64,000 bases of DNA from Alphaproteobacteria bacterium (GCA_963667785.2 CAXXMU010000002.1:736001-800000); one strand, 5' to 3'. Counted from the stretch's first letter, positions 42,889-57,516 are shown. Made by a program: numbers and translations. Notes: generated by a model from the sequence alone, not told the origin.

Positions 42889-42891
42889 GGC

Positions 42892-43746
42892 TCAGAGCTC
42901 CGCCTTGCCGAAGAGGCCCTTGGGCCGCACCAGCAGCACCAGGATGATGAGCAGCATGGTGGAGACGCCGCGCAGCTCGGCCGCGATCAGGGTGGTCGTG
43001 ATCGTCTCGACGAATCCGATGATGTGGGCCGCGATCAGGCTGCCGACGATGCTGCCGATGCCGCCGACGATCACGACCGCCACCGAGATGATGAGCGGGA
43101 ACACCCACATGTGGGAATCGAGCTGGGTGAAGGTCGCGAAGAAGACACCGGCGATGGCGCCGAAGGCGCCGCTGAGCGCCCAGGTCACCATGCTGATGAC
43201 GCTGGGCTCAATGCCCGAGATCACCGCGCCCTTGCGGTCCATGGAGACCGCGCGGATGGCGCGGCCGAGATGGGTGTAGCGGACGAAGGCCATGAGGCTG
43301 CCGAGCACCACCCAGCTCACGCCGGTCGCCAGCAGGATGTTCATGGTGACCGAGACGCCCTCGTAGCGGAGCACGCCGCGAATCACCGGCCACATGGTCT
43401 TGGGTGCGGCGCCGAAGATCACCACGATCAACGCCTGCATGACGACGGCGAGGATCAGCGTCGATATCTCGACCGCGATCGGGTTGTCCTCCAGCCGGCG
43501 GACCAGGAACAGATAAGTGAGCAGGCCGAAGGTCACGCCCGCCAGGATCGCCAGGATGAAGCTTGCGAAGACCGGCAGCCCCGCCTCCTGGAGGGCCGCG
43601 TAGTAGATGTAGCCGCCGAGCATGATGTAGACGCCGTAGGCCAGGTTCAGCACCCGGCCGACGCTGAAGATCATGGTGAAGCCGACGGCGATCAGCGCGT
43701 AGAGGCCGCTGAGCACGAACCCCTGGATCAGGATCTGGAGCGCCAT
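42892..43746 (-). CDS. livH: Liv-type ABC permease
   Basis: YALIAVGFTMIF, LNLAYG, GRAIRAV, VGGIGS, RPKGLFG. Confidence 0.88.
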   Translation of the reverse strand: MALQILIQGFVLSGLYALIAVGFTMIFSVGRVLNLAYGVYIMLGGYIYYAALQEAGLPVFASFILAILAGVTFGLLTYLFLVRRLEDNPIAVEISTLILAVVMQALIVVIFGAAPKTMWPVIRGVLRYEGVSVTMNILLATGVSWVVLGSLMAFVRYTHLGRAIRAVSMDRKGAVISGIEPSVISMVTWALSGAFGAIAGVFFATFTQLDSHMWVFPLIISVAVVIVGGIGSIVGSLIAAHIIGFVETITTTLIAAELRGVSTMLLIILVLLVRPKGLFGKAEL

Positions 43747-43884
43747 CAGAGCTCGCTCGCGGGCCGTCGGGTCAGCGTTCGCACGGAGGCCGGGACGCTC
43801 CGATCACGGGCGACCCCGGCGCACTTCCAGCAAGGCAAACCGGGCGCGACCCGTATAGCCGCGCCCGGTGAGTGACTAGCCGAC

Positions 43885-45189
43885 CTACTTCAGCCAGTCC
43901 GGCACCTCGAACTCGCCGTTGGCGTACTTCGGCGGGTAGACGACCTTGGTGGAGCCATCCGAGTACCACTGGATGACCACCATCGACGGCGCCCCTTCAT
44001 CGTAGGGCGGGTTGATGTCGAACTTGATGTTGTGGGTGTATTCCCGCTGGGTGCGGGGCTCGATCTCGCCCGGCTTCCAGAAGGCGTAGCGGAGCCAGAT
44101 CTCGCCGTCCTTCTCGACGACGATATCGTCGTTCTCCATCTCGCGGACCCAGTCGTCGAGCGGCTCGAAGCCGCCGGCGCGCTCCGCCGCGGCGAAGGCG
44201 TTGAGCATCCCGTAGTAGGCGTTGAAGCCGTTGAAGTGCGGGAAGACCGGCCGCGAATCGCCGTACTTGGCAGCGTACCTGTCGAGGAAGTCCTGCGTGC
44301 GCGGGTCGATTTCCGAGCCGATGGAGGGCACCGGGCTCAGCGTCGAGATGCCGCCGCCGAGGCCGCCGGTATCGTCCCAGAACTCCCGGGCGAAGGCCGA
44401 GACGTTGATCCCGGTCATCGGCAACGGCACCTCGAGCTTCACGTACTGCGAGGCCGGCACCTGGCTGCGCACCGCCGCGATCGAGTAGATGAAGTCGGGC
44501 TCCGCCGCCACCGCTTTGTTGTAGATGGGGCCGAAGTCGACCGTGTTGGTGTCGTAGACGGTGTGACCGATGATCTCGATGCCGGCCTCCGGCGCGAGCA
44601 CCTGCTCGATCAGCTCGTAGACGCCGCCGCCGAACGCGGTGTCCTCCTGCAGAACGTACACCGTCTTCCAGCCCATCTTCTTGGAGAGCACGTCCTTGCC
44701 GAAGTCGACGTAGAGGATGGCCAGCGCGTAGTCGTTGGAGACGTTCATGAAGTACATCTTGTACTTCTCGTACTCCTCGACGACCTTGTCGATGATGCCG
44801 ACATAGGAGGTCCAGGTGTCGAGGGTCGGCGTCCGGTACTCCGCCATGCGCTCGAGCCAGCCCAGCGACACGTCGTCGATGCAGCCCGAGATGATGAAGT
44901 CGACGTTCTCGACCTCGTTCAGGTATTCGTAGGCCTTGATGCCCTCCTGCACGTCCTCGCGTGTGTCGGCCTTGACCAGCTCGATCATGCGCCCGCCGAG
45001 CACCCCGCCGGCCGCATTGATTTCCTCGATGGCGATCTCGGTGCCCCGGATCGTGCTCTTGCCCGTGTCGGTGTCGAACGAGCCGATATAGCCGACCTTG
45101 ATCGGGTCGGCGGCAGGTGCGGCGGTCGTAAGCGACCAGACGGCCGCCGTGGCGACTGCGGCGCCTATCAGCAGATGACGGACTTTCAT
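43885..45189 (-). CDS. Liv-type ABC substrate-binding protein
   Basis: Signal peptide, IKVG, EEINAAGGVLGGR.IEL, EDTAFG; first gene of the liv-type operon. Confidence 0.88.
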   Translation of the reverse strand: MKVRHLLIGAAVATAAVWSLTTAAPAADPIKVGYIGSFDTDTGKSTIRGTEIAIEEINAAGGVLGGRMIELVKADTREDVQEGIKAYEYLNEVENVDFIISGCIDDVSLGWLERMAEYRTPTLDTWTSYVGIIDKVVEEYEKYKMYFMNVSNDYALAILYVDFGKDVLSKKMGWKTVYVLQEDTAFGGGVYELIEQVLAPEAGIEIIGHTVYDTNTVDFGPIYNKAVAAEPDFIYSIAAVRSQVPASQYVKLEVPLPMTGINVSAFAREFWDDTGGLGGGISTLSPVPSIGSEIDPRTQDFLDRYAAKYGDSRPVFPHFNGFNAYYGMLNAFAAAERAGGFEPLDDWVREMENDDIVVEKDGEIWLRYAFWKPGEIEPRTQREYTHNIKFDINPPYDEGAPSMVVIQWYSDGSTKVVYPPKYANGEFEVPDWLK

Positions 45190-45721
45190 GACCCCAACCT
45201 CTCTTCGTCGTTAGCTATCTCCCGGATCGCACTACTGTAGCCCGGAACTCTCACAACTGTCATGGTCTGCGCGACGCGCCCCGCCCGGCGGGTGGGCAGG
45301 GTGCGGTGGTGGCTCCGACGAGCGCGCCGCTGCCTCACCTCGGCGAGACGAGGGGACGGAATCGCCGGAATCGGCGGGCGGGCTCGGGATCACACCTCGT
45401 GCTTCGCGGACTTGACCGCCGCGCGCCCGGACCCGACATGCATACATGTTCGGTGAACGACGACGGCAATCCGAGACCCCGCATGCGCCTGTTCGTGACG
45501 AGACGCACTGGCCGCACAACTCGCAGACCGAAACGCGGCATTGGGGCCCCGTTCTCAATTCGCTTTCTTGTATCGTCCGGTCGTGGCAGTCTTTTCATTT
45601 CGACCATCCTTGAGGTAGTCAATCCCGCACTGCTCACCGATCATGTGCGTCCCTTCGAATTGCGCGGCAGTTCCGGCGCTCGTACTGTGTCACGACTTCA
45701 GGTCCAAGGAGGCCACGGCTG

Positions 45722-47749
45722 ATGGCTGATTCGACCGAGGGTCTGGCATCCCAATCCCTGACGCTGCCCGAGGAGCTCATCCTGATGCTCCTCAACGACG
45801 AGACAGGCTACTTTCACCAGGTCCAGGGCTGGGAACTGAACTGCGCCGTCGTCGGCGCGGTACTGGCGGAACTGTCCCTCCTCGAGCGCATCGACACGGA
45901 CATGGAGTCGCTGCTCCTGGTGGACCGGACGGAAACGGGAAACCCGGCGCTTGATCCCATTCTGAAGGAAATCGCGGACGAGCCGGTTCGGCACAACGCC
46001 CAGTACTGGATCGAGCGACTCGCTGCCCATGCGGATTCGGTCATCGACCTGACTCTCGACCGCCTGGTCGATCTCAAGATCCTGAAGCACCACGACGGCG
46101 ATTTCTGGACCCTGGCCCCTACCAGCCGCTACTCCGACCAGTACGGCCACCTCGACGATGACACCCCGGATCAGTTCATCAAGACGCGCATCAGCGTCTA
46201 CATCTTCACCGAGGCGATCCCCGATCCGAGAGACATCATCATCATCTGCCTCGTCAATACCTGCGATGTGTTTCGCTTCATTTTCGACCTCGACGACGAG
46301 GCGGAGGAGCGCATCAAGTTCATCTGCAGAATGGACCTGATCGGCCGCTCCATCGCCGATGCGGTCGAAGCGAACATTGCCAGCCCGCTGCTTCGACACG
46401 CCGCCTTCACCAAGAAGATTCCGGTCGTTCCATGGCACAAGCTGCTGCTCAATCGACACATGCGCGATCGCAACATCCCCGGAATCTGCGCCGGGCTCGC
46501 GCAAGAGTACGGGCCGGTGTTTCAGATCCGTCCGCCGTTCGGCGAGACCGTGACCTTCCTGGCCGGGGCCGCCACCAACCGCTGGCTCCACCGCAACGGG
46601 CGGATGTACCTGAGATCCAAGGACTACTTCACCGATGTCGAGAAAGTCTACGGCGCCTCCGGGCTGATCCCCTCCCTCGACGGCGCCGATCACTTCCGGC
46701 AGCGCAAGGCCATGCAGCCGGGCTATTCTCGCGAGAGGCTGGAGGGAGAGCTGGACGCCCTCTACGGTCACATTCGCGCATTCATGGCGGATTGGAAGGT
46801 GGGCTCGACCCTGCCGGGCACCGCCACCTGCCGCCTCATGGTCAACGCTCAGATAGCGCCCGTCATTCTCAGCATCGAGGCACAGGACATCGTGGAGGAC
46901 CTGATCAAGTTCAAGGAGCGGGCGCTCACCACGCACGTCGCGAGGGTCCTGCCCAAATTCATGCTGCACACCCCGGGCATGAAGAAGCCTGCCAGGGCCA
47001 TCGAAGTGGCGGTGCAACGGATCCTGAACGTCCACACGCCCGCGCAGAGGTCCGGCTGCCCGCGCACCCTCGCGGACGACATGCTCAGCCTCCATGCCAG
47101 CGACCCGCAGTTCCTCCCCGAGTCGAACATGGCGTTCTATCTGTCGGCGCCCATGCTCGCCAGCATGTACCTCGGCGATGCGCTGGGCTTCGGCCTCTAC
47201 GCCATGGCGTCGCAGCCCGAACTCTACCGCCGGATTCGGGGCGAGGCCGATGCCCTGTTCGCCGACGGCGACCCGGACGGGGCGGCCTACACCAAGTCGG
47301 CCCTCGACGTCACGAACCGCTTCATCATGGAGTGCATGCGCATGTACCCCGTGGTGCCCGCGTCGATTCGCAACGTGATGAACTCGTGCGTCATCGAGGG
47401 CTACCAGCTTCCGGTGGGGGCACGCATCGTCATCGCCCAGACGGCCCCGCACTACATGAGCGACGTCTTCCCGGAGCCTTACAAGTTCGACATCGACCGC
47501 TACCTGCCGCCGCGCAACGAACACCGCAGCCCCGGATACGCGCCTTACGGGCTCGGCACTCACATGTGTCTCGGCTTCCGCTGGATGGAAATGCAGCTCA
47601 CCGTCAATCTGCTGATGATCGCGCGCTACTTCACGCTCGAGGTGTCGCCGAAGAACTACAAGCTCCGGATCAACCCGTTTCCGTCGATGTCTCCGAACAG
47701 GAAGCTGAAATTCCGCGTCGCCGAGCAGGCGCGCGAGCTGCCCGTCTAG
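45722..47749 (+). CDS. Fusion: N-terminal GPP34 (GOLPH3-like) domain + cytochrome P450
   Basis: N-terminal LTLPEELILMLLNDETG...GAVLAELSL..RI...LDRLV is GPP34-like; C-terminal YGPVF, LDGADH...RK, ECMR (ExxR), FDIDRY, YGLGTHMCLG (heme Cys). AAGGAGG RBS; single uninterrupted ORF. Confidence 0.82.
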   Translation: MADSTEGLASQSLTLPEELILMLLNDETGYFHQVQGWELNCAVVGAVLAELSLLERIDTDMESLLLVDRTETGNPALDPILKEIADEPVRHNAQYWIERLAAHADSVIDLTLDRLVDLKILKHHDGDFWTLAPTSRYSDQYGHLDDDTPDQFIKTRISVYIFTEAIPDPRDIIIICLVNTCDVFRFIFDLDDEAEERIKFICRMDLIGRSIADAVEANIASPLLRHAAFTKKIPVVPWHKLLLNRHMRDRNIPGICAGLAQEYGPVFQIRPPFGETVTFLAGAATNRWLHRNGRMYLRSKDYFTDVEKVYGASGLIPSLDGADHFRQRKAMQPGYSRERLEGELDALYGHIRAFMADWKVGSTLPGTATCRLMVNAQIAPVILSIEAQDIVEDLIKFKERALTTHVARVLPKFMLHTPGMKKPARAIEVAVQRILNVHTPAQRSGCPRTLADDMLSLHASDPQFLPESNMAFYLSAPMLASMYLGDALGFGLYAMASQPELYRRIRGEADALFADGDPDGAAYTKSALDVTNRFIMECMRMYPVVPASIRNVMNSCVIEGYQLPVGARIVIAQTAPHYMSDVFPEPYKFDIDRYLPPRNEHRSPGYAPYGLGTHMCLGFRWMEMQLTVNLLMIARYFTLEVSPKNYKLRINPFPSMSPNRKLKFRVAEQARELPV

Positions 47750-47768
47750 CCCGGATTTCTCGCCAGGC

Positions 47769-49127
47769 TCACGCCTTCCTGAAGCGCCGGCCGTACATCG
47801 TGCGGCCATAGAAGTTGAACCACTTGCGCGCCTCGGAATCCTCGAACGGATAGTCCGCCCCGAGCTGCCTCGCGGTGACGAGGCCGGTGACGAAGCAGGT
47901 CTCCTGGCTGTTGACCAGAGTGTGGGCGCCGCAGTGCCACGTCCGCCGCTTGCCCTGAACGAAGCGGAACAGGTGGATCAGGATGGCCACGTGGGGCACG
48001 TCGTGCACGATGTGCTGAAACCACCACCTCTTGATGATCTTGCCTTCGTCGATACGGCTGATCGGGTTGTAGGTCACCAGGCACGGCTTGTCCGACCGGT
48101 GCACCCAGGGCTGCTGATTGTGCATGATGTAGGTGATCTCGTAATTGTCGGGTCTCGCCCCGTACTGCTCGATGTGATTGCTCCGCGTCGCGAGCGGCTC
48201 GACCTCGTTGTCGGGAAGAACCGACGCGTCGGAATGGACGACCGTGTGGTTGTGCAGCTCGCTCTCGTAGCGGATCGAAGAGAGAAGGCTGCTCTCCATG
48301 AAGGTCGGCTTGTCCAGCATCATCAGCGTCTGATTGGCGTTGCAGGCGAAGACGACATCGTCGAACGTCTCGGTCCCTCCGTTCTCGTCCTCCACGACGA
48401 CTTCGCCTGCGCGCCGATACACTTTCCGCACCGGTCGCTCGAGGTAGATCCTGTCCCGAAAGGCGGCCGACAGCGCCTCGTAGATGCGCCGCGTGCCCCG
48501 GTCCCAGGTCTGCATCGGCGTTGCGGTCTCGATATCGAAGAACTCAAGATAGCGGGAGAACAGGGACGCAGGCATGTCGAACACGTTCGTCGCCATCAGG
48601 AAATTGACGAACATCGGCTTCAGTATCTTGTACCTGAAGTCTCCGGAGTACCTGCCCAGATTGAGGATCGCGCCCATGCTGACGTAGTTGTACGGGTTGA
48701 AGGCGTTGAGCAATCTGGACTTGCTCCGATTGAGGCGGCCGAACCAGCGCAGGCGCCGCAGCAGCCGCTGGAACTTCTCGATCTCCGGCTGCAATTGCCT
48801 CCTGATGTCGGAGTCGAAGTCGTGCGCGTAGACGCCGCCGCGATACTTCACGCTGTAGCTGAACCTGGTGTCGATCAGGTCGATACCGAGCTGCTGCATG
48901 AGCAGGACGATGTGGTGGTACACCGAGGGAATGCACGCGGTGACGGAAATATCGAACGGAATCGAGGTGCCGTCGTCCTGCGGCATGTCGGCCGTGATGG
49001 CATTGCCGCCGACCTGAGCCTGCGCCTCGTACAGGCGAAAGTCGAATCGATCGGGGTGGCGATCGAGCGCCCAGGCCACCCCCAGCCCGGAGACCCCTGC
49101 GCCGACTATGGCAACCCGTCTCGGCAT
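47769..49127 (-). CDS. FAD-dependent oxidoreductase (COG2907-like, amine oxidase fold)
   Basis: VAIVGAGVSG, YEAQAQVGG, FDDVVFAC, VVHSDASVLP, TY.M, QGKRRTWHCGA...ARQLG. Confidence 0.8.
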   Translation of the reverse strand: MPRRVAIVGAGVSGLGVAWALDRHPDRFDFRLYEAQAQVGGNAITADMPQDDGTSIPFDISVTACIPSVYHHIVLLMQQLGIDLIDTRFSYSVKYRGGVYAHDFDSDIRRQLQPEIEKFQRLLRRLRWFGRLNRSKSRLLNAFNPYNYVSMGAILNLGRYSGDFRYKILKPMFVNFLMATNVFDMPASLFSRYLEFFDIETATPMQTWDRGTRRIYEALSAAFRDRIYLERPVRKVYRRAGEVVVEDENGGTETFDDVVFACNANQTLMMLDKPTFMESSLLSSIRYESELHNHTVVHSDASVLPDNEVEPLATRSNHIEQYGARPDNYEITYIMHNQQPWVHRSDKPCLVTYNPISRIDEGKIIKRWWFQHIVHDVPHVAILIHLFRFVQGKRRTWHCGAHTLVNSQETCFVTGLVTARQLGADYPFEDSEARKWFNFYGRTMYGRRFRKA

Positions 49128-49197
49128 CGCCGCGGGGCTTCGGTCGGTGACCCGCCGGCCGGGAAGGCGGACCGGAGCGACTCGAAGCGGACCTGCC

Positions 49198-50019
49198 CTA
49201 GCGGATGCGCTTCAGGGCGGTCTTGGTGAAGTCGCCCACGTCGAGGTCGGTGCCGAACTCGTAGTCCAGCCAGTGCAGCTCGGTGCTCTTTCCCGTGAGA
49301 TGGTTCGTCATCGTGATCTTGCTGGCCCGCCAAAAGCGATCGAGATACTTCTGGTAGCCCTCCACGGCCATCGTCTTGAGGTGCGCGTCCCTGCGATCGT
49401 GGAACTGGATCTGCTGGACGCGAAGCTCCTCCTGGTCGAACCAGACGATCTGACGGGAGTAGCCCGACTTCCGGTCGAGCGGGACACGCTCCACCACGAC
49501 GCATTCGAGCTCGCCGCAGGGCTCGTCGCGCAGGTACGTGTACGCGTACTTCTCGATCTCGGAGGCGCCCAGGTCCTCGTAAGCGAACTCGCTGCCCATG
49601 AAGGAGCCGGACTGGTTCGAGGAACTGATGCGCTTGACCCGTTTCAGGGCGGGAAGATAGAGCCACTGCTCGTCCGGCTCGTCCTTGTGGGCATGGACGA
49701 GAAACGCCGTTCCCTTGACGTCGCGCGGCCGGTCGAACACGAACATGGTGCGATCGCCGTCCCCCTCGACCTCGATGACCTGCAGGCGAAGCTCGCGCCG
49801 GCTTTCCTGCCCGCGCTTGTTGCGCAGGACCATGTTGAGACTCGCGGTGAAATTGCCGAAACCCTTCTCGCGCTCGCGGGCGTCGGTCGCGATCCTGAGC
49901 CCGGCTTCCTCGGCGCTTTCGGCCGCCCGAGAGACCGGCGGCTCGACCGCCCAGGCCAGGACGGCGACGAAGAGCCCGAAGAGCGCAAGCAACAGGTAGG
50001 GGGAAGAGACGCGGATCAC
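49198..50019 (-). CDS. Outer-membrane lipoprotein-sorting (LolA-like) periplasmic protein
   Basis: Signal peptide; FDRPRDVKGTAFL, QWLYLPALKRVKRI, FMGSEFAYED, SGYSR. Confidence 0.87.
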   Translation of the reverse strand: MIRVSSPYLLLALFGLFVAVLAWAVEPPVSRAAESAEEAGLRIATDAREREKGFGNFTASLNMVLRNKRGQESRRELRLQVIEVEGDGDRTMFVFDRPRDVKGTAFLVHAHKDEPDEQWLYLPALKRVKRISSSNQSGSFMGSEFAYEDLGASEIEKYAYTYLRDEPCGELECVVVERVPLDRKSGYSRQIVWFDQEELRVQQIQFHDRRDAHLKTMAVEGYQKYLDRFWRASKITMTNHLTGKSTELHWLDYEFGTDLDVGDFTKTALKRIR

Positions 50020-50185
50020 CGTTTCCTCCTGTCGGTGGCCATCAGCGGAGCGGAAAAGGCGGAAAACCGGCGGCGGTATCCGGGCAGCGACTGGGCCGTG
50101 TCATCTCGTTCACCTTCGCCGGAACCTGCGGGCTCATGGTAGCACGATTCCCGCCCGGCGCATGGAGGGCCGGCGCCGGCCCGGA

Positions 50186-51451
50186 TCAGAAGTTGTAGTC
50201 CAGGTTCACCCCGATGTAGCTGTCCCGCCGCGCGACATAGGCGGCGTCTTCCTCGTCGATCCCCACATAGGCGGCGGCTTCCACGTGCAGGGACAGGCTG
50301 TCCGACAGGCGGCGCTTGAACTCGGCGCCAAGAACGCGGCTGCTGTTCTCGAGGGAGTTCAGCACGCTGCCGACGAACTCGGTGCTCTGCTCGTCGTTCA
50401 GCCCGAGACGCGCGACGAGGAGCAGGTCGTTCTCGAACGCGTTGGTCGCCCAGCGGCCTCTCCCGTCGTGGGTCCATTCGGCGATCAGGGTCAGTTCGGC
50501 GTCGAGTTCCCACGGGGAATAGATCGCGTACTCGCCGCCGAGCACGAAGGCCGCGTAGTCCTCTTCCTCGTAGTTGAGGGTCCGATCGAGTCGGGCGTTC
50601 TGCGCGCCGGCGCGGTGAATGGCTTCCAGCTTGAGAAGCCAGGGGCCGGTGGTGAGCTGGGTATCCAGGCCGAACTGCTGGATCTGCTCGTAGTACGGCG
50701 CCAGAACGAGCTCGCGGCCGACCAGCATCGGCAGCAGGGTGGGCTCGCGGCTGGTGCCGTCGAACGCGCTGAGCCCGACATCGAGCGGGCCGACGCTGCC
50801 GGTGTAACGGCCGGCGAGATCGACGTGCCACTCTTCATGCACTGATTCGTACGCGGTCAGAGAGTGGTCTACGACCAGCGCGGGACGCAGGCGGCCGTGG
50901 CGGCCCGGGTAGGTGCGCTTGCGGTGCCCGGTCAGCGCGAACAGCTCCAGCGCCCCCCAGTCTCCCGACAGGGTGACGTGGGCCATCGGCTGGCCCAGCT
51001 TGGTCTTCTCGTCCGGGTGCTCCACCAGGTCGGTCTGGTTGACGATATCGACCAGGGAACGCGATTCGACGACGCCCCAGAACACGCGATCGACGCCGAG
51101 CCGCAGCTCCCATTCGCCCTCGCCGATATCGCCGTAGAGGAGGAGGAAGGCCTCGCGGAGGTCGGCGTGGGTGCGCTCCGGATCCCCGGCGTCGAAGCGG
51201 TAGAAGGGCGTGACCGTGATGCTCCGGCCTTCGTCGTCCTCCATGTAGGCGGTGATCTCCGCGGCGAAGCCGCTCGAATGGGAGCGCTGGTCGGCGAACG
51301 CGGGAGTCTCGGGGTAGAGCCGGGTCTCCGGCGAATAGCGCCCGGAAAGCTCGAAGTAATCGATGAACCCGTCGTCGGCGTGTGCGCCGGTCGCGAGCAG
51401 CGGGACCAGCATGCCGAGCGCCGGGAGGAGGACGGGGAGGCGCGCGATCAT
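50186..51451 (-). CDS. Predicted outer-membrane beta-barrel protein
   Basis: Signal peptide; DLREA, G.DRVFWG, DIVNQTD, KLGQPM; C-terminal beta-signal YIGVNLDYNF; lies between the RND and LolA-like genes. Confidence 0.75.
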   Translation of the reverse strand: MIARLPVLLPALGMLVPLLATGAHADDGFIDYFELSGRYSPETRLYPETPAFADQRSHSSGFAAEITAYMEDDEGRSITVTPFYRFDAGDPERTHADLREAFLLLYGDIGEGEWELRLGVDRVFWGVVESRSLVDIVNQTDLVEHPDEKTKLGQPMAHVTLSGDWGALELFALTGHRKRTYPGRHGRLRPALVVDHSLTAYESVHEEWHVDLAGRYTGSVGPLDVGLSAFDGTSREPTLLPMLVGRELVLAPYYEQIQQFGLDTQLTTGPWLLKLEAIHRAGAQNARLDRTLNYEEEDYAAFVLGGEYAIYSPWELDAELTLIAEWTHDGRGRWATNAFENDLLLVARLGLNDEQSTEFVGSVLNSLENSSRVLGAEFKRRLSDSLSLHVEAAAYVGIDEEDAAYVARRDSYIGVNLDYNF

Positions 51452-51506
51452 CCCGCCCTCCTCACCTCCGGCACGGATGGAGAACCGGGGCACGCGCCCG
51501 CGTTGT

Positions 51507-53867
51507 TCAACTGCTCCCCTCGCTCGCCACCTTGGTCGCTCCGCCCGTCCCCTTTCTTCTATCGAGAATCATGAGCAACGGCGGGAGGAACAGGAAGTCC
51601 GCCAGGAGAGCGATGATGACCGTCGTTCCCGCCAGCAGACCGAGCGCCTGGTTGTTCGCCATCCCCGATGCGCCGAACACCATGAAACCCAGCGCGAACA
51701 CGACGGTCGTCGCCAGCAGCGCCTTGCCGACCGTGCCGAAGGCGGACTGGACGGACTCCTCCGGCGACTGCCCGCTCTTCCGGCCTCTCAGATACTTGGT
51801 CATGAAGTGAATCGTGTCGTCCACGATGATGCCGAACGCGATGGCGGTGACGACCGACGCCGAGACTCCGACCTGTCCCACCGCATACCCCCACAGCCCC
51901 ATCGCCATGGCGGCCGGAACGAAATTGGGTATCAGGCTGATCAGGCCGAAGCGCACGCTCCTGAAGATGAAGATCAGCAGCAACGAGACGATACCCATCG
52001 CCGTGATGGTGCCAATCAACATCTTCTCGATGTTTCTGTTGATCGAGTGCGCCCCGACGATCGTCATCCCGGCGGCGCCGGTTTCCAGACCGGGAGCATT
52101 CTGGCGCAGCCAGTCGCGCGCGCGCTCGTCGAGCTCCAGCTTCTGGTTGACGGAGAGCGCCTTCAGGACGACCGTCAGGCGGGTCGCCGACCGTTCGACG
52201 TCGATCAGGTTGTTGAGGTCCAGGCCCACCGGCAGAGAGAATTCGTAAAGCAGCAGGTATTGGGCGGCGAGCTCGGTGTCGTCCGGAATGCGGTAGAACT
52301 CCGGATCGTCGCCATTCAGATTCTTGTTCAGGCGCTTCACGATGTCGGTGACGCCGAAGACATGAGCGACTTCGGGCTGCGCCCGGTACCACTCCGCGAA
52401 CGCGTCGACCTGCTTCAGATAGCCGACATCCGTGATGCCGCCCTCTTGCCCGGACTCGAGCGAGTACTCGAACGGCTCCAGGCCGGAGAAATTGTCGCTC
52501 ACGAAATCCGTGGCTCGCCGGAACTCGTAGCTTTCGCTGAGAAGCTCGAGGTGATTGTCGTCGAGTTCGATGCGCGAGATGCCGGCAACCAGCGCCACGA
52601 CGAGGACGCCGAAGGCAGCCAGCATGACAATGCGGCGGGACACGACGAAGCGCCCGAAACGCTCGAAGAAGCGGTCGAAATAATCGGTCTTCCCGGCCTT
52701 GGCGGGCCGGACGCGCAGGGGCATGAGAGACAGGAAAGCCGGCAGGAGCGTCACCGAAAAGACGAAGGCGGACAGCGAGCCGAAGGCGACGATATTGCCC
52801 ATGACCCGAAACGGCGGCATCTCGGAGAAGTTCAGGCTGAGGAATCCGATTGCCGTCGTGATCGACGTCAGGAATACGGGCCACACGTTGAGCTTCAGAG
52901 AGTGGATCGCCGCCTGTCTGCGGTCCATTCCCTGGCGCAGGCCCGCCAGCATTCCCTCTATGATGTGCACGCAATGTGCGACCGTGATCGCCATCAGGAC
53001 GAACAGCGCCGCCCCGCTCTCGCCGTAGAACTTCATGCCGGCCCAGCCGCCGAAGCCCAACGCGGATATGACGATCGCAATGATCATCAGGATGATCGCG
53101 ACGATTCCCCAGACCGTGCGCAGCATGAGCAGGGCGACGAGCAGCATGACCCCGAGCGCGATGGGGCCGAGCAGGCCCATGTCCTCGTTGAGCGCGTCGC
53201 GAACCGCGCGATTGAGCAGGACTTCGCCGGTCAGGTAATACCCGTGGGTCGGATGCTTCGTTCGCGCCTCGGCGGTGGCGGCGTTGAGGTAGTCGACGAC
53301 GTCCAGCTTGGCCTGCTCCCGCTCCTCGTCGGGGATCGCCGCGCTGACGATCAGCCCGGCAACGCGACCGTCCCGGGAAATCAGACGCCCGGCAATTTCC
53401 TCGGTACCGAGCGCGATACTCTCGATCCGCTCTATGTCGTCGTCAGTCAGCGCAGCGGCGTCGTCGATAAGCGGATCGACGATCAGCTCGTCCTCGAGGC
53501 CTTCGCTATGCGAGTAATTCGTCAGTGAATCGACGCGGATGACGTAAGGCGTGCGCCACAGCGCCTCGGTCAACTCTTCTATGGCAGCAAGCGATTCCTG
53601 CGTGAAGACGGTACCGCTCTTCGGCGCTACGGCAACCAGCATGGTGTCGGAGATGGCGTAGGTGCCTTCCAGTTGCTCGAGCGCGACAAGATTCGGGTCG
53701 TCTTTACTGAAATGATTGCGAGAATCGACGTCGACGTTGACGAGGTTCTGGGCACCTGCGGCGAGCAACAGCACGACGATCACGGAGAGCAAAATGGTCA
53801 GCCACCGGCGACGCATAATGTGCGCTATGGAGGAGTCCAAATCGATGCCGGAGGGGAGGTACTTCAT
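51507..53867 (-). CDS. MMPL/RND superfamily lipid transporter
   Basis: Two repeats of periplasmic loop plus TM bundle; LTSITTAIGFLSL, PNFVP, GIIVDDTIHF, ALLATT, FLPPLL. Confidence 0.9.
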   Translation of the reverse strand: MKYLPSGIDLDSSIAHIMRRRWLTILLSVIVVLLLAAGAQNLVNVDVDSRNHFSKDDPNLVALEQLEGTYAISDTMLVAVAPKSGTVFTQESLAAIEELTEALWRTPYVIRVDSLTNYSHSEGLEDELIVDPLIDDAAALTDDDIERIESIALGTEEIAGRLISRDGRVAGLIVSAAIPDEEREQAKLDVVDYLNAATAEARTKHPTHGYYLTGEVLLNRAVRDALNEDMGLLGPIALGVMLLVALLMLRTVWGIVAIILMIIAIVISALGFGGWAGMKFYGESGAALFVLMAITVAHCVHIIEGMLAGLRQGMDRRQAAIHSLKLNVWPVFLTSITTAIGFLSLNFSEMPPFRVMGNIVAFGSLSAFVFSVTLLPAFLSLMPLRVRPAKAGKTDYFDRFFERFGRFVVSRRIVMLAAFGVLVVALVAGISRIELDDNHLELLSESYEFRRATDFVSDNFSGLEPFEYSLESGQEGGITDVGYLKQVDAFAEWYRAQPEVAHVFGVTDIVKRLNKNLNGDDPEFYRIPDDTELAAQYLLLYEFSLPVGLDLNNLIDVERSATRLTVVLKALSVNQKLELDERARDWLRQNAPGLETGAAGMTIVGAHSINRNIEKMLIGTITAMGIVSLLLIFIFRSVRFGLISLIPNFVPAAMAMGLWGYAVGQVGVSASVVTAIAFGIIVDDTIHFMTKYLRGRKSGQSPEESVQSAFGTVGKALLATTVVFALGFMVFGASGMANNQALGLLAGTTVIIALLADFLFLPPLLMILDRRKGTGGATKVASEGSS

Positions 53868-54194
53868 GAATGGTGCGTCGTCAGATGTCAGTCGGGGAGT
53901 GGCTCTGACACGGTTCCCGCTCGCCGCTCAATGCAGCCGGAAGCCGTGTGGCGACGTCCAGAATCGGGAGCATTTCCATGGCAGTATCACAGCCTCCCGA
54001 TCCCTTGTCCATCGCTCTCTCGGGCGAACCCGCCCGCCTTGCGGCGGCTGCGCGGGCGCGCGACCGCGATCCACGCACGCTCGCCGCGGTTGGCGACGTG
54101 TTGCGCGCTCACTACATAATCCGGTATGGCGTGGACGGGGTTCGATGCCCCGCGACCATATGCCGCCCTGCACTCCGGGCCGACGGTCCTTGCC

Positions 54195-55280
54195 ATGCAG
54201 ATGCATCTTCATCGACAGAGTGTCCCGCAAGACGTGGAAGAGAATCTGATCGCGGGCGGTGACGATCCCTCCCTCTTCCCGTTTCCCGAAGGGTGGTACT
54301 TCGTTGCCGACCGCCGCTCGTTAGCGAAGGGCGAACTGATCGAAAAGCAGTGGATGGGGCAGGACATCGTCGTCTGGTGCAACGACGAGGGAGCCGTCTG
54401 CGTCGCCCGGTCGCTCTGCCCTCACCTGGGATCCTCCCTGGGCCCCGCCGCCGGCGGGCGCGTGCGCGACGGCCGACTGGTCTGTCCCTTTCACGGCTTC
54501 ACCTACGACGCGACCGGCGCCTGCGTCGCGACTCCCTATGCGCCGCCCCCCAAGGGCACGAGACTGAGCGTCTTCCCCACGCGGGAGATTCTCGGCCTCG
54601 TCTTCGCCTGGTGGGGCATCGACGGACGCCCGCCGCAATGGGACCTGCCCGAAGAGCCGGCGGCAGGAGACGAGTGGAGCGACCTTGAAATCGAGACCCT
54701 CCGGTTTCCTGGCCACCCTCAGGAGACGACGGAGAACTCGGTGGACCTGGCCCACCTGCGCTACGTGCACGGCTACGACAACGTGAAACCCGTCGGATCG
54801 GCGACGGTGGAGGGCGCACGTCTCGTGAGCTGCTTCGACTTCAGGCGTCGCACGCGCATCGCCGGAGTCATCGACCTCGTCTTCGACGTGTCGGCCGCCA
54901 CCTACGTCCACGGGCTGGGCTACTCGTTCGTCGACATCCGTGAGCACACCGTCGGCATGGAGACCCGCCTGTGGGTTCTGACCACGCCGGTCGACGGCAC
55001 GCTCGTCGACCTCGTTCTGGTCTCGCAGGCTCGCATGCTGCGAAAGCCCAAGCGTTTCGTCGCCGGCCTCGGATTCCTGCCGGTGAAGGTGCGCACCGGG
55101 ATCATGAACAGGTTTCTGCTTTCCATACAGAAGCAGGACGTTCTCCAGGACGTCGTGATCTGGGGGAAGAAGAGCTACCGGCCCCATCCAAGCCTCTGCG
55201 GCTCCGACGGTCCCATCGGCAGGTACCGGCGCTACTGCAGGCAGTTCTATCCGCGTGGCGACGATGGCGGACGCAGCTAG
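54195..55280 (+). CDS. Rieske non-heme iron oxygenase/desaturase alpha subunit (KshA/Neverland-like)
   Basis: FPEGWY, CPHLG...CPFHG (Rieske), ENSVDLAHLRYVH (Fe site), QDVVIWGKK, GPI.RYRRY..QFY; start approximate. Confidence 0.85.
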   Translation: MQMHLHRQSVPQDVEENLIAGGDDPSLFPFPEGWYFVADRRSLAKGELIEKQWMGQDIVVWCNDEGAVCVARSLCPHLGSSLGPAAGGRVRDGRLVCPFHGFTYDATGACVATPYAPPPKGTRLSVFPTREILGLVFAWWGIDGRPPQWDLPEEPAAGDEWSDLEIETLRFPGHPQETTENSVDLAHLRYVHGYDNVKPVGSATVEGARLVSCFDFRRRTRIAGVIDLVFDVSAATYVHGLGYSFVDIREHTVGMETRLWVLTTPVDGTLVDLVLVSQARMLRKPKRFVAGLGFLPVKVRTGIMNRFLLSIQKQDVLQDVVIWGKKSYRPHPSLCGSDGPIGRYRRYCRQFYPRGDDGGRS

Positions 55281-55342
55281 GGTCGAGGCCCGCGAGGCCG
55301 CGGCGCTCGATGCGTCGCCCGCGTGCCTGCGGTGAGCGCTCC

Positions 55343-56221
55343 ATGAACGTTTCGACCGGCATCCCGATCCTCCCCCGCCTCGCCCCGCTGATGGCGGACT
55401 ACGACGGCTGCATCCTCGACGTATGGGGGGTGATGCATCAGGGAGGGCCGGCCTATCCCGAGGCGCTCGATTGCCTCCGCCATCTGCGCGCGGCGGGCAA
55501 GCGGGTGGTGTTCGTCTCCAACGCGCCCAGGCTCGCGGCCCAGGTCGAGTCCGTTCTCGGCGGGAAGGGGATCGAAGCGGCGCTGTACGATGCCGTCGTC
55601 GCCTCCGGCGACGCCGCGCGTCAGGCTCTCGCCGACCGCACACGCCCTCCGTTCGACGGACTCGGGCGCCGCTACCGTCTGCTCGGGCCGCCCGGCTCCG
55701 ACGACGTGCTCGACGGTCTCGGCTACGCTGCCGCCGACATCGACGGGGCGGACTTCCTGCTCGGCATCGGTCTCGACGATGGGCGCGAGACGGTCGAGGA
55801 TCACGAGCCGATCCTGCAGGCGGCCGTTGCCCGCGATCTCCCCATGATCTGCGTCAATCCCGACCTGCTGGTGATCCGGCTGGGCGTTCAGGAGCCCTGC
55901 GCCGGCGCGCTCGCCGCCCGCTACGAGGCGCTCGGCGGCAGCGTGCGCTATTTCGGCAAGCCTCATCCCGAAGTCTACGACCTGGCGCTGGCGGCGCTCG
56001 GTCTCGCGCCCCGGCGCGTGCTCGCCGTCGGCGACGGGCTCGCCACCGATATCGCCGGCGCCGCCGCTGCGGGCCTCGCTTCGCTCCTGGTCACCGGCGG
56101 CCTGCTCGCCGACTCGCTCGGCCTCGCCCCCGGCGAGCCGCCGGGCGCCCAGGCCCTGGAGGATGCCTGCCGGGCTGCCGGCGTCAGGCCTAGCGCCGCC
56201 CTCGCGGCTTTCGTCTGGTAA
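55343..56221 (+). CDS. HAD-superfamily hydrolase, subfamily IIA (TIGR01459-like)
   Basis: LDVWGVMH, VSNAPR, CVNPD, CAGALA, GKPH, VGD..TDI.GA. Confidence 0.88.
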   Translation: MNVSTGIPILPRLAPLMADYDGCILDVWGVMHQGGPAYPEALDCLRHLRAAGKRVVFVSNAPRLAAQVESVLGGKGIEAALYDAVVASGDAARQALADRTRPPFDGLGRRYRLLGPPGSDDVLDGLGYAAADIDGADFLLGIGLDDGRETVEDHEPILQAAVARDLPMICVNPDLLVIRLGVQEPCAGALAARYEALGGSVRYFGKPHPEVYDLALAALGLAPRRVLAVGDGLATDIAGAAAAGLASLLVTGGLLADSLGLAPGEPPGAQALEDACRAAGVRPSAALAAFVW

Positions 56222-56280
56222 TGGCACCCTCAAGATAAAGTTATTGGCGCGTGTGCGGCGCGCCCCCAATAGTCCTTCAT

Positions 56281-57516
56281 ATGAGCACGGCCACGACAGC
56301 GGCAGCCAGCCTTCCGCGCGCGCGCCCGCAAGCTGCGGTCGCAGTTGGCGCCGGCGTGCTGGTCCTCGCCTGCACGCTCGCGCTCGGCATCGCGGTGGAC
56401 GGCAGGCTCGCCGCGCTGCTCGTCGTCGGCGGGCTCGCGGGGCTCGCCCTGCACCACGCGCTGTTCGGCTTTGCGTCCTCGACCCGGCGGTTTCTGGTCG
56501 AGCGGCGCGGCGTCGGAATCCGCGCGCAGCTCCTGATGCTGGCCGCGGCCAGCATCGCCTTCGCCCCGCTGCTGGCGGGCGGCAGCGCCTTCGGCCAGGG
56601 GCTCTCGGGCGCGCTCGCGCCGGTGGGAGTCTCGGTTGCCATCGGCGCCTTCCTCTTCGGCGTCGGCATGCAGCTCGGCGGCGGCTGCGCCTCCGGGACG
56701 CTCACGGGCGCAGGTGCGGGCAGCCTCCGCATGGCGATCACGCTGGGTGCCTTCATCGCCGGCTCCGTGCTGGCCACGGCGCACATGCCCTGGTGGCTCG
56801 ACCAACCCGCGCTTGCCGCCCTCTCGATCCCGCAGACCCTGGGCTGGCCGGCCGGCCTCGCGGTCCAGCTCGCCGCCATCGGCCTGCTGGCGCTCGGCGC
56901 CATCACCCTGGAGCGCCGCCGCCACGGCGGCCACGAGCCGCTCGTGTGGGGTGCCGGCACGGACTGGCGGATACACCTCCTGCACGGCGGCTGGCCGCTG
57001 GCCTGGGGCGCGCTGGCGCTCGCGCTGCTCAATCTCGCGACGCTGCTCATCGCCGGCCACCCGTGGAGCGTCACCTGGGGCTTCACACTGTGGGGCGCCG
57101 CGCTGGCCGATGCGCTCGGCTTCGCCATCGCCGACTGGGCCTTCTGGCAGTGGCCACGGCCGGCGCGCGCGCTCGAGGCCGGCGTCGCGCAGGACACGGT
57201 GTCGGTGATGAACGTGGGCCTGATCCTCGGCGCGCTGCTGGGCGCCGCGCTGGCCGGGCGCTTCGCGACCCGGCGCCGGCTCGGCGCAGGCGCGGTGGCG
57301 AGCGCCGTGATCGGCGGCCTCCTGCTCGGCTACGGCGCCAGGCTCGCCTTCGGCTGCAACATCGGCGCCCTCTTCAGCGGCATCGCATCGGGCAGCGTGC
57401 ACGGCTGGCTCTGGCTGCTGGCCGTGCTCCCCGGCGCGGCACTCGGAGCGCGGCTGCGCCCCCTCTTCGGCCTCGACAGCGGCGCGGCGCGTGTCGCCGC
57501 AGGAACCAACCCTTGA
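56281..57516 (+). CDS. YeeE/YedE family (sulfur compound transport) membrane protein
   Basis: FGFAS, FGVGMQLGGGCASG, GGLLLGYGARLAFGCNIG. Confidence 0.88.
   Translation: MSTATTAAASLPRARPQAAVAVGAGVLVLACTLALGIAVDGRLAALLVVGGLAGLALHHALFGFASSTRRFLVERRGVGIRAQLLMLAAASIAFAPLLAGGSAFGQGLSGALAPVGVSVAIGAFLFGVGMQLGGGCASGTLTGAGAGSLRMAITLGAFIAGSVLATAHMPWWLDQPALAALSIPQTLGWPAGLAVQLAAIGLLALGAITLERRRHGGHEPLVWGAGTDWRIHLLHGGWPLAWGALALALLNLATLLIAGHPWSVTWGFTLWGAALADALGFAIADWAFWQWPRPARALEAGVAQDTVSVMNVGLILGALLGAALAGRFATRRRLGAGAVASAVIGGLLLGYGARLAFGCNIGALFSGIASGSVHGWLWLLAVLPGAALGARLRPLFGLDSGAARVAAGTNP

What the first reader, a model, noticed from the sequence alone, without database searches (positions are those of the whole stretch)
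45722..55280. Candidate undescribed lipid/sterol-modifying and trans-envelope transport system
Seen: six contiguous genes that look less GC-rich than the flanks (by eye): GPP34-P450 fusion (+), then on the minus strand in transcription order MMPL/RND, OM barrel, LolA-like protein and FAD oxidoreductase, then a divergent Rieske oxygenase. Established: MMPL/RND pumps move lipids such as hopanoids and sterols; KshA and Neverland/DAF-36 Rieske enzymes act on steroids; COG2907-type flavoproteins occur in fatty-acid modification loci. Inference: three unrelated oxidative chemistries plus a complete inner-membrane/periplasm/outer-membrane hydrophobic shuttle suggest import or export and tailoring of a sterol- or fatty-acid-like molecule, possibly host-derived. 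No scaffold synthase, ferredoxin/reductase or regulator is in the locus.
Basis: partly seen in the sequence, partly recalled or inferred. Interest (0 to 1): 0.85.

Follow-up and report, generated by a model that had tools for sequence, protein, structure and literature searches.

The report
Sponge-symbiont sterol tailoring and transport island
This 10-kb gene island pairs a P450 enzyme known only from sponge symbionts with two other oxidases and a pump that spans the cell envelope, and its neighbours in other genomes point to sterols, possibly the host's, as what it modifies and moves.

Summary
The six genes are real and lie at the stated coordinates. They form a discrete 10.1-kb island (45206-55335) that is missing from the same site in the closest named relative.

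The GPP34-P450 fusion recurs at 44-76% identity in 78 loci from more than 10 phyla. Many record titles name sponge-symbiont MAGs. Within 10 kb of it lie:
- an RND pump of one of three types (51 of 77 genomes)
- a sterol methyltransferase (42 of 78 loci)
- the KshA-like Rieske oxygenase (35)
- the FAD oxidase (32)
- an ERG4/ERG24 sterol reductase (15)
- the LolA-like protein and outer-membrane barrel (18 and 19, diderms only)

The window's flanking genes never co-occur. The window's genome also has a complete sterol core cluster about 420 kb away. Yet 59 of 77 fusion-bearing genomes gave no oxidosqualene cyclase hit, so many must act on outside sterol.

My reading is a horizontally spread sterol tailoring and trafficking module. 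The transport direction and the exact chemistry are unresolved.

The fusion itself was published in 2025 as a proposed PI4P-binding anti-phagocytosis effector. I found no paper linking it to sterol genes or pumps. The PI4P pocket residues are not conserved here.

The parts
45206..45721 (.). Left edge of the island and the non-coding stretch upstream of the fusion gene
   Evidence: Nucleotide alignment with the closest named relative (G001) ends at 45205. ORF 45306-45722 is Arg-rich with GC3 0.63 and is probably not a gene.
45722..47749 (+). GPP34-P450 fusion, the 'GPP34_L' of Ferreira 2025. GPP34 domain about residues 15-217, P450 about 247-656. No signal peptide.
   Evidence: Pfam. ExxR (E537, R540) and heme Cys (C616) are invariant in 27 sequences. 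Model pLDDT 77, pTM 0.72. 78 related loci.
47769..49127 (-). FAD-dependent amine-oxidase-family oxidoreductase. GxGxxG at residues 9-14. Last gene of the minus-strand operon.
   Evidence: Pfam. Nearest solved relative is LkcE, E 2e-23. 70-89% identical copies in 35 of 78 loci by tblastn, including 3 partial matches of 10-24% coverage. The 120 best of 1871 homologue clusters are all 84-99% identical.
49198..50019 (-). Periplasmic LolA-like carrier (DUF1329-related). Signal peptide without a lipobox cysteine.
   Evidence: PF17131 202 bits, DUF1329 32 bits. PDB 3bk5, E 1e-81. Sequence. Predicted to dock on the barrel.
50186..51493 (-). Outer-membrane beta-barrel, a distant DUF1302 relative. The likely start is the ATG at 51454.
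   Evidence: Signal peptide and C-terminal ...YNF. The model has about 18 strands, pLDDT 67, with porin-like matches of TM 0.37-0.56. 14 of 20 family members hit DUF1302 at E<=0.01; the window's copy does not.
51507..53867 (-). Inner-membrane RND transporter of the MMPL/HAE3 type with a weak sterol-sensing-domain match. First gene of the minus-strand operon.
   Evidence: PF03176 128 bits, PF12349 25 bits. TIGR00921 HAE3 160 bits, below its cut-off of 352.
53868..54125 (.). Divergent intergenic region between the pump operon and the Rieske gene
   Evidence: Gene coordinates. It shares no word of 11 or more bases with the region upstream of the fusion.
54126..55280 (+). KshA-like Rieske non-heme-iron oxygenase. 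The true start may lie a few tens of codons downstream.
   Evidence: Rieske 65 bits and KshA_C 88 bits. CPH...CPFH and D-x2-H-x4-H motifs are visible in the sequence. KshA, E 8.5e-26. Relatives cover 84-97% of the query.
55281..55335 (.). Right edge of the island
   Evidence: Alignment with G001 resumes at 55336.

Best explanation
The island is a horizontally spread module for tailoring and trafficking sterols. It is typical of sponge-associated bacteria.

Shown:
- The gene content, and its recurrence around the GPP34-P450 fusion in many phyla.
- The island's absence from the same site in the nearest relative.
- A full sterol core cluster elsewhere in this genome.

Inferred mechanism:
- Three cytoplasmic or membrane-face oxidoreductases (the P450, the Rieske oxygenase and the FAD oxidase) hydroxylate or desaturate a sterol held in the inner membrane.
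- The GPP34 domain acts as a peripheral membrane-docking module for the otherwise soluble P450. It is not a phosphoinositide reader.
- The proton-driven MMPL pump moves sterol between the inner membrane and the periplasm.
- The soluble LolA-like protein carries it across the periplasm and docks on the outer-membrane barrel.

The direction of transport is open. In this genome the substrate may be self-made sterol sent outward. In the many relatives without a cyclase it must be outside sterol, probably the host's, brought inward, alkylated or desaturated, and perhaps returned.

A side-chain role for the P450 (for example C-22 desaturation beside C-24 methylation) is my guess only.
For: Recurrence:
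- The fusion is present full-length in 78 loci from Alpha- and Gammaproteobacteria, Nitrospirota, Chloroflexota, Acidimicrobiia, Gemmatimonadota, Latescibacterota, Dadabacteria/Thermodesulfobacteriota and others.
- ORF clustering within +/-10 kb of the fusion gives, of 78 loci: SMT 42, Rieske 35, FAD oxidase 32, ERG4/ERG24 15, window-type MMPL 14, a second MMPL/SSD type 28 (monoderms), AcrB type 9 (Gemmatimonadota, Latescibacterota), LolA-like 18, barrel 19.
- Some RND pump is present in 51 of 77 genomes.
- The window's specific flank genes occur in 0 of 78 loci.

Sterol link in the window's own genome:
- SdmB-like, SdmA-like (398 bits), ERG24, a true CYP51 (E 7e-106 to solved CYP51), a squalene-epoxidase/oxidosqualene-cyclase fusion (TIGR03463, 747 bits) and an SMT lie at C2:356-366 kb.

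Outside substrate:
- Only 18 of 77 fusion-bearing genomes have an OSC-type hit (at least 537 bits).
- 42 have no cyclase hit at all, 29 of them chromosome-level records.
- This includes all 15 Dadabacteria/Thermodesulfobacteriota genomes, which still carry SMT, ERG4/24, fusion, FAD oxidase and the transport trio.

Transport chain:
- LolA-like plus barrel complex: ipSAE 0.75, 0.74 and 0.76. The best of 3 controls scored 0.00. In the tool's calibration the mark was reached by 116 of 157 solved complexes and 2 of 215 mismatched pairs.
- Partner pLDDT was 87, and the runs agree in at least 85% of contacts. My own alignments were used, so the counts hold only roughly.
- The trio matches the DUF1302/DUF1329/RND cassette known from AmeABCD (PMC6394551) and from cofitness data (bioRxiv 10.1101/072470).

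Horizontal spread:
- The fusion tree mixes phyla.
- The window's fusion is 72% identical to a Nitrospira copy, where RpoB is 46-72% by segment. It is only 62% identical to a Rhodospirillaceae copy, where RpoB is 48-77% by segment.
- In G001 (RpoB 93%) the flanks align at 93% and 82% nucleotide identity, but the site holds an MttB-family gene instead. G001's own island lies about 1.8 Mb away, with proteins 68-89% identical.
- Within the order, full-length or nearly full-length fusions occur in 12 of 20 other genomes of the window's genus and 0 of 28 genomes of other genera.

Other:
- GPP34-Rieske fusions exist in two genomes (PMC11706023, section read). This ties GPP34 to the second oxygenase class of this island.
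Against: - No biochemical datum exists for any of the six proteins.
- None reaches any NCBIfam equivalog cut-off: SdmA 37.5 of 600, BstA 36 of 1400, HpnN 52 of 1100.
- P450 homology does not point to sterols. The best solved relatives are CYP184A1 (solved with oleic acid), CYP120, P450 BM3 and CYP97C1. It is only 25% identical over 155 residues to the genome's own CYP51.
- The window's island itself holds no SMT or ERG4/24 gene.
- SMT is missing from 36 of 78 loci, the Rieske gene from 43 and the FAD oxidase from 46. Several loci are cut short by contig ends, so these are upper bounds on absence.
- Absence of a cyclase in MAGs can be an assembly gap. Completeness was not given for those genomes.
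- Bacterial RND pumps are known as exporters, which fits import poorly.
- No ferredoxin or reductase partner lies in the locus.
- No RNA data were found.
Confidence: 0.6

Rival explanations
1. The module tailors and moves a non-sterol lipid: long-chain or branched fatty acids, hopanoids, carotenoids or host terpenoids. The sterol genes nearby are only loosely linked.
For: - The nearest solved P450s bind fatty acids or carotenoids: CYP184A1 with oleic acid, BM3, CYP97C1.
- The FAD oxidase's only solved relative is LkcE, of polyketide chemistry.
- The known DUF1302/DUF1329/RND cassettes are tied to monoterpenes and fatty esters.
- 17 fusion-bearing genomes have only a hopene-cyclase-type hit.
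- The window's island has no SMT.
Against: - The methyltransferase beside the fusion carries the sterol-specific C-terminal domain (55-66 bits in the Dadabacteria copies).
- ERG4/ERG24 is a sterol-reductase family.
- The pumps hit the sterol-sensing domain (25-54 bits).
- 42 genomes have no triterpene cyclase hit at all, which excludes self-made hopanoids there.
Confidence: 0.13
2. This is the published proposal of Ferreira et al. 2025. The GPP34 protein is a secreted effector that binds host PI4P and blocks phagosome maturation. The neighbouring genes are unrelated to that role.
For: - The GPP34 fold is related to GOLPH3/Vps74: Pfam 104 bits, profile against 3kn1 E 1.3e-6.
- The paper reports the fusion only in sponge symbionts, and reports expression of GPP34 genes in 45 of 107 genomes (passages read).
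Against: - There is no signal peptide; the GPP34 domain starts at residue 15.
- A P450 needs heme and an electron donor.
- The four GOLPH3 pocket residues W81, R90, R171 and R174 (PMC2806290) align to P, V, E/D and I in the profile. The second half of that alignment is of low confidence.
- The conserved neighbours are lipid enzymes and pumps.
- In the paper, 'signal peptide' and 'binding pocket' occur 0 times and 'sterol' 0 times.
Confidence: 0.08
3. The module takes up host steroids to degrade them as food. The KshA-like enzyme opens ring B, the P450 attacks the side chain, and the FAD enzyme dehydrogenates.
For: - KshA is the best solved relative of the Rieske protein, E 8.5e-26.
- Acyl-CoA dehydrogenase genes lie in 15 of 78 loci.
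- Known cassette mutants grow poorly on hydrophobic carbon sources.
Against: - No other steroid-catabolic family (ring-cleavage or side-chain beta-oxidation sets, or an Mce-type importer) appeared among the 45 largest neighbour clusters. I gave Pfam only the 18 that looked like genes.
- SMT and ERG4/24 build sterols rather than break them.
- The acyl-CoA dehydrogenase is mostly a Dadabacteria synteny feature: 9 of its 15 loci.
Confidence: 0.07
4. This is a detoxification unit. The oxidases and the pump remove toxic hydrophobic host or neighbour metabolites, as proposed for AmeABCD with monoterpenes.
For: AmeABCD deletion lowers monoterpene tolerance and raises Nile Red uptake. Sponges are rich in hydrophobic natural products; this last point is recalled, not from a call.
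Against: - The FAD oxidase is extremely conserved (84-99% in the 120 best clusters).
- The tie to SMT and ERG4/24 suggests one defined substrate class, not broad xenobiotics.
Confidence: 0.05

Closest known systems
GPP34_L (GPP34 + cytochrome P450) proteins of sponge symbionts, Ferreira et al. 2025, Microbiome (PMC11706023)
   Same: Same two-domain architecture. The relatives found here include the MAG series the paper names (APA_bin, SB06xx_bin).
   Different: The paper proposes a secreted PI4P-binding effector and analysed flanks only for the short GPP34 form. It does not mention sterol, MMPL or LolA. Here the fusion is read as one enzyme of a lipid operon. The paper's PDF supplement (Fig. 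S11) was not held, so I could not see its flank drawings.
AmeABCD of Castellaniella defragrans, and the DUF1302/DUF1329/BNR/RND(COG1033) cofit cassette (PMC6394551; bioRxiv 10.1101/072470)
   Same: An RND pump of about 787 aa of the HAE3 type, plus a LolA-like DUF1329 periplasmic protein, plus a DUF1302 outer-membrane protein, encoded together.
   Different: There is no AmeC/BNR (COG4447) gene. The carrier (273 aa against 451) and the barrel (435 aa against 605) are much shorter. The window's barrel does not itself reach DUF1302. The system is tied to sterol genes rather than monoterpene or fatty-ester use.
BstABC sterol transport of Methylococcus capsulatus (recalled; only the NCBIfam BstA model was used here)
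   Same: The same logic: an RND pump, a periplasmic carrier and an outer-membrane component moving sterol across a diderm envelope.
   Different: It is not orthologous. BstA scores 36 bits against a cut-off of 1400, and no NCBIfam family matched the carrier or the barrel.
Clusters of steroid genes in sponge symbionts (Kelly et al. 2022, PMC9531527) and symbiont sterol methyltransferases (Brown et al. 2023, PMC10070321)
   Same: The same organisms and the same horizontal spread over about 10 phyla. The window's genome carries such a core cluster (ERG24-CYP51-cyclase with SMT on the opposite strand).
   Different: Those clusters make the sterol nucleus. This island holds none of their genes and adds three other oxidoreductases and a transport chain. 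In the passages I searched, neither paper mentions the GPP34 fusion, Rieske enzymes or transporters.
KshA, the 3-ketosteroid 9-alpha-hydroxylase oxygenase
   Same: Rieske plus KshA_C domains, with metal ligands present.
   Different: The similarity covers mainly the N-terminal 185 residues. There is no KshB reductase nearby and no catabolic context. It is also distinct from the genome's own SdmA-like gene (39 against 398 bits).
NPC1/NPC2 of eukaryotic lysosomes (recalled, not tested)
   Same: An RND-fold membrane protein with a sterol-sensing domain that receives sterol from a small soluble carrier. This is a precedent for inward transfer by this protein class.
   Different: It is a eukaryotic system. 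The carrier fold is unrelated to LolA, and there is no outer-membrane partner.

Membership tests
GPP34_L (GPP34-P450 fusion of sponge symbionts) | GPP34 and P450 domains in one polypeptide | tested here: met
   PF05719 104 bits at residues 15-217 and PF00067 115 bits at residues 247-656. One continuous model.
GPP34_L (GPP34-P450 fusion of sponge symbionts) | Occurs in sponge-associated bacteria only | tested here: inconclusive
   At least 20 of 78 related record titles carry sponge-related names or bin series; the rest name no habitat. The exclusivity claim is the paper's. The origin of the window's genome was not sought.
GOLPH3/Vps74 PI4P effectors | Basic pocket W81, R90, R171, R174 (GOLPH3 numbering; PMC2806290) | tested here: not met
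   A profile of 27 fusion GPP34 domains aligned to 3kn1 places P, V, E/D and I at these positions. The C-terminal half of the alignment has low posterior probability.
CYP51 sterol 14-alpha-demethylase | Close sequence kinship to solved CYP51 enzymes | tested here: not met
   E 2e-18 to CYP51, behind CYP184A1 and CYP120. 25% identity over 155 residues to the genome's own CYP51, which itself scores E 7e-106.
KshA-type Rieske oxygenase | Rieske [2Fe-2S] domain plus KshA_C catalytic domain with Fe ligands | tested here: met
   PF00355 65 bits and PF19298 88 bits. CPH/CPFH and D-x2-H-x4-H are visible in the sequence.
KshA-type Rieske oxygenase | Works with a KshB reductase in a steroid-catabolic cluster | tested here: not met
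   There is no reductase or catabolic gene in the island or among the conserved neighbours annotated.
SdmA (bacterial 4-methylsterol oxidase) | NCBIfam NF052579 at or above its cut-off of 600 bits | tested here: not met
   37.5 bits. A different gene of the same genome scores 398 bits, inside the sterol core cluster.
BstA / HpnN lipid RND transporters | NCBIfam equivalog scores (BstA 1400 bits, HpnN 1100 bits) | tested here: not met
   BstA 36.4 bits, HpnN 51.8 bits.
HAE3-type RND with DUF1302/DUF1329 partners (AmeABCD-like cassette) | RND permease of the HAE3 subfamily | tested here: inconclusive
   TIGR00921 is the best NCBIfam hit, but its 160 bits lie under the cut-off of 352. Pfam MMPL is met.
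HAE3-type RND with DUF1302/DUF1329 partners (AmeABCD-like cassette) | LolA-like DUF1329 periplasmic protein encoded alongside | tested here: met
   PF17131 202 bits. PF07044 32 bits against a cut-off of 23.
HAE3-type RND with DUF1302/DUF1329 partners (AmeABCD-like cassette) | DUF1302 outer-membrane protein encoded alongside | tested here: inconclusive
   The window's copy has no hit. 14 of 20 family members hit at E<=0.01. The genome's paralogue scores 26.3 bits against a cut-off of 23.2.
HAE3-type RND with DUF1302/DUF1329 partners (AmeABCD-like cassette) | BNR/Ycf48-like fourth component (AmeC, COG4447) | tested here: not met
   No such gene lies in the island or beside the genome's second trio.
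   No COG model was at hand. Pfam gives only Amino_oxidase/NAD_binding_8, and the only solved relative is LkcE.

The most novel reading that the evidence does not exclude
Many sponge symbionts that cannot make sterols use this module to take sterol from the host. They alkylate and desaturate its side chain with the adjacent SMT, the P450 fusion, the FAD oxidase and the ERG4-type reductase, and then hand it back. On this reading the unusual sponge sterols, including the 24-isopropyl type used as the oldest animal biomarker, are joint host-symbiont products. The GPP34 domain would be a bacterial membrane-docking device for lipid enzymes, not a phosphoinositide-binding effector.
Probability: 0.25. 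Interest if true: 0.9.

Novelty: new variant of a known kind. Interest (0 to 1): 0.78.

Why it matters
Two separate lines of work meet in this locus. One is the GPP34-P450 protein, the clearest known gene marker of sponge symbiosis, whose function is still open. The other is bacterial sterol genes in sponges, which bear on whether 24-isopropylcholestane is a reliable animal biomarker.

If the fusion is a sterol enzyme wired to a pump, three things follow:
- The published effector model needs revision.
- There is a concrete, clonable gene set for testing whether symbionts remodel host sterols.
- The short DUF1302/DUF1329/RND cassette gains a defined candidate cargo.

Tried and rejected
- **RNA evidence:** no RNA holder was listed for the island. 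I did not lay reads.
- **ESM Atlas:** closed for both queries.
- **Earlier notes of this scan:** nothing for this place.
- **Fold search of the barrel:** only generic porin matches, TM 0.37-0.56 on a pLDDT-67 model. This confirms a barrel and nothing more.
- **Fold search of the fusion:** a long list of P450 BM3 entries, with no help on substrate.
- **Island ends:** no terminal repeats, integrase or tRNA. The one 16-nt inverted pair has an arm outside the island.
- **Promoter regions:** no word of 11 or more bases is shared between the two.
- **GC as a mark of recent transfer:** rejected. The drop is mostly in codon positions 1 and 2 and extends into neighbouring housekeeping genes.
- **The Rieske gene as the pathway's C-4 demethylase:** rejected.
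- **The fusion as a second CYP51:** rejected.
- **ORFs treated as shadow frames:** 50016-50831, 45306-45722 and 55277-56269. ORF clusters 'unk194' and 'unk399' overlap SMT and MMPL2 on the opposite strand and were dropped as shadows.

Full report
**Observation.**
- 45722-47749(+) encodes a 675-aa protein with a GPP34 domain (residues 15-217) and a P450 domain (247-656).
- On the minus strand, in transcription order, lie four genes: an MMPL-type RND pump (51507-53867), a 435-aa protein with no Pfam hit (50186-51493), a LolA_like protein (49198-50019) and an FAD amine-oxidase-family protein (47769-49127).
- 54126-55280(+), divergent from the pump, encodes a Rieske plus KshA_C oxygenase.

The unassigned protein has a signal peptide and ends in ...YNF. 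It folds as a barrel of about 18 strands (pLDDT 67) with generic porin matches. The LolA-like protein has a signal peptide without a lipobox cysteine. The P450 keeps ExxR and the heme cysteine. The Rieske protein keeps both metal sites.

Three overlapping ORFs are Arg-rich shadow frames.

GC is lower than in the far flanks. However, the dip begins in the neighbouring Liv-type ABC genes and lies mostly in codon positions 1 and 2. It is therefore not a mark of recent transfer.

**Island limits.** RpoB places the genome 93% identical to a named alphaproteobacterial MAG, here G001. Against that genome, window 42396-45205 aligns at 93% nucleotide identity and 55336-58759 at 82%. Between these two stretches G001 has 1.8 kb with an MttB-family gene, where the window has 10.1 kb.

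G001 does have the same six genes in the same order, but about 1.8 Mb away. Its proteins are only 68-89% identical, which is less alike than the flanks.

I found no repeats, integrase or tRNA at the ends. The rest of the window is housekeeping: MetRS, IleRS, MutL, RibF, IspG and GlnE.

**Recurrence.** A scan of one genome per species found 91 stretches encoding relatives of the fusion. 78 distinct loci were kept, at 44-76% identity and nearly all full length, from more than ten phyla. Many titles carry sponge-related names (Poriferihabitaceae, Poriferisodalis) or bin series. A published paper ties two of these series (APA_bin, SB06xx_bin) to sponge MAG sets.

I clustered all ORFs within 10 kb of the fusion. 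The conserved neighbours, of 78 loci, are:

| Neighbour | Loci |
|---|---|
| Sterol methyltransferase (with Sterol_MT_C domain) | 42 |
| KshA-like Rieske | 35 |
| FAD oxidase | 32 |
| Second MMPL/sterol-sensing pump (monoderm phyla) | 28 |
| Barrel | 19 |
| LolA-like | 18 |
| ERG4/ERG24 sterol reductase | 15 |
| Window-type MMPL | 14 |
| AcrB-type pump, directly downstream (Gemmatimonadota, Latescibacterota) | 9 |

So 51 of 77 genomes put some RND pump beside the fusion. The window's specific flank genes appear in 0 of 78 loci. Several loci are cut short by contig ends, so these counts are lower bounds.

**Horizontal spread.**
- The fusion tree (FastTree, 84 rows, rows under 600 aa dropped) mixes phyla. 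The window groups with an alpha- and a gammaproteobacterial copy. That trio lies in a starred clade with Nitrospirota and Poriferihabitaceae copies. A Latescibacterota and a Gemmatimonadota copy are near-identical and nest among Chloroflexota.
- The window's fusion is 72% identical to a Nitrospira copy but 62% to a Rhodospirillaceae copy. RpoB runs the other way: 46-72% against 48-77% by segment.
- In the window's order, 12 of 20 other genomes of its genus have a full-length or nearly full-length fusion. None of 28 genomes of other genera has one.
- The FAD oxidase is extraordinarily conserved. The 120 best of 1871 homologue clusters are 84-99% identical, with source names from four phyla.

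**Why sterol.** None of the six proteins reaches a curated equivalog, and P450 homology points nowhere in particular. The argument is one of context.

First, the neighbours listed above are sterol families.

Second, the window's own genome has a textbook bacterial sterol core about 420 kb upstream on the same contig. It comprises SdmB-like, SdmA-like, ERG24, a true CYP51, a squalene-epoxidase/oxidosqualene-cyclase fusion and an SMT. This matches the 'cluster of steroid genes' of Kelly et al. 2022 (passages read). It also shows that the island's Rieske and P450 are not the C-4 and C-14 demethylases.

Third, and unexpectedly, only 18 of 77 fusion-bearing genomes have an oxidosqualene-cyclase-type hit. 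17 have only a hopene-cyclase-type hit and 42 have none, 29 of them chromosome-level records. All 15 Dadabacteria/Thermodesulfobacteriota genomes (1.5-2.4 Mb) lack a cyclase hit. Most of them still carry SMT, ERG4/24, fusion, FAD oxidase and the pump, carrier and barrel in one 12-kb stretch. These organisms can only be acting on sterol made by something else.

Brown et al. 2023 raise host-sterol methylation for Chlamydiae only (passages read).

**Transport chain.** The trio corresponds to the DUF1302/DUF1329/RND cassette. Known examples are AmeABCD in Castellaniella (passages read) and a cofit four-gene set in several Gammaproteobacteria. The window's version is shorter and lacks the BNR component.

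14 of 20 barrel relatives weakly hit DUF1302. The carrier matches PDB 3bk5 at E 1e-81.

A complex prediction of carrier plus barrel scored 0.75, 0.74 and 0.76, and the best of three controls scored 0.00. In the tool's calibration the mark was reached by 116 of 157 solved complexes and 2 of 215 mismatched pairs. Partner pLDDT was 87, and the runs agree in at least 85% of their contacts. Because my own alignments were used, those counts hold only roughly. The contacts come from strands all round the barrel, so the carrier is modelled as capping or plugging it. This supports binding but does not show it.

The direction of transport is open. Bacterial RND pumps export. Yet the cassette's known mutants grow poorly on hydrophobic carbon sources, which also fits uptake. 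The cyclase-less genomes need uptake.

The genome has a second trio on contig 6, 40-56% identical to the island's, 14 kb from a second SMT.

**The GPP34 domain.** Ferreira et al. 2025 described the fusion as exclusive to sponge symbionts and proposed a secreted PI4P-binding effector (abstract and sections 9, 18 and 25 read, plus searched passages). They analysed flanks only for the short GPP34 form. The text holds no 'sterol', 'MMPL', 'LolA' or 'signal peptide', and the held spreadsheet holds no 'sterol' or 'MMPL'. Their PDF figures were not available to me.

Three points argue against the effector reading here:
- There is no signal peptide.
- A P450 depends on heme and an electron donor.
- In a profile alignment to GOLPH3 (E 1.3e-6), the four pocket residues defined by Wood et al. 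2009 (passages read) are replaced by P, V, E/D and I. The second half of that alignment is weak.

I propose instead that GPP34 docks the soluble P450 on the membrane that holds its substrate. The GPP34-Rieske fusions reported in the paper fit this.

**Literature.** These searches found no paper linking the fusion to sterol genes or pumps: 'GPP34'+'sponge', 'GPP34'+'sterol'+'symbiont', 'GPP34'+'P450', and 'sponge'+'symbiont'+'sterol methyltransferase'+'transporter'+'P450'. The library lacks most subscription journals.

**Verdict.** The parts belong to known families, and the fusion is published. The assembled system, its sterol context and the cyclase-less carriers appear to be new. All functional statements are inferences from sequence and context.

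Noticed in passing
G000 contig C2:361003-364473 (L084:9004-12474): Squalene epoxidase and oxidosqualene cyclase are fused in one 1156-aa frame. Cyclase hits in many other fusion-bearing genomes also sit in open frames of 1137-1184 aa, so the fusion looks widespread in these symbionts.
   Followed up: partly
G000 contig C6:328262-338710 (L086): A second MMPL, LolA-like and DUF1302-like barrel set, 40%, 56% and 51% identical to the island's. It lies 14 kb from a second sterol methyltransferase and next to a tryptophan-halogenase-family gene and a PEP mutase gene.
   Followed up: partly
G000 contigs C2:343812, C2:544548, C2:869107, C5:353322, C6:477010: Five stand-alone GPP34 genes (33-42% identical to the fusion's domain by the two searches), plus a stand-alone P450 at C5:178415 that is 33% identical to the fusion's P450 half.
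   Followed up: no
L005, L014, L048, L051, L056, L065, L076: Seven related loci hold two copies of the fusion gene within 10 kb.
   Followed up: no
Genomes G049, G043, G034 (same genus as the window): Full-length GPP34-P450 proteins only 33-35% identical to the window's. This suggests a second, older lineage of the fusion in the genus.
   Followed up: no
L097:3461-5302 (genome G001): At the site where the window has the island, the closest relative has an MttB-family (trimethylamine methyltransferase-like) gene. The site is a variable spot between a Liv-type binding protein and a HAD hydrolase.
   Followed up: partly
window 25253-26110 (-): A sodium/bile-acid symporter family (SBF) gene lies 20 kb from the island. 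The family is broad, and no link to the island was tested.
   Followed up: no
window 30984-32642 (-): Nitrile hydratase alpha and beta subunit genes lie among solute-binding-protein genes.
   Followed up: no
window 5476-9414 (-): A 1312-aa protein whose only Pfam hit is one pre-peptidase C-terminal (PPC) domain. It may be a large secreted protein.
   Followed up: no
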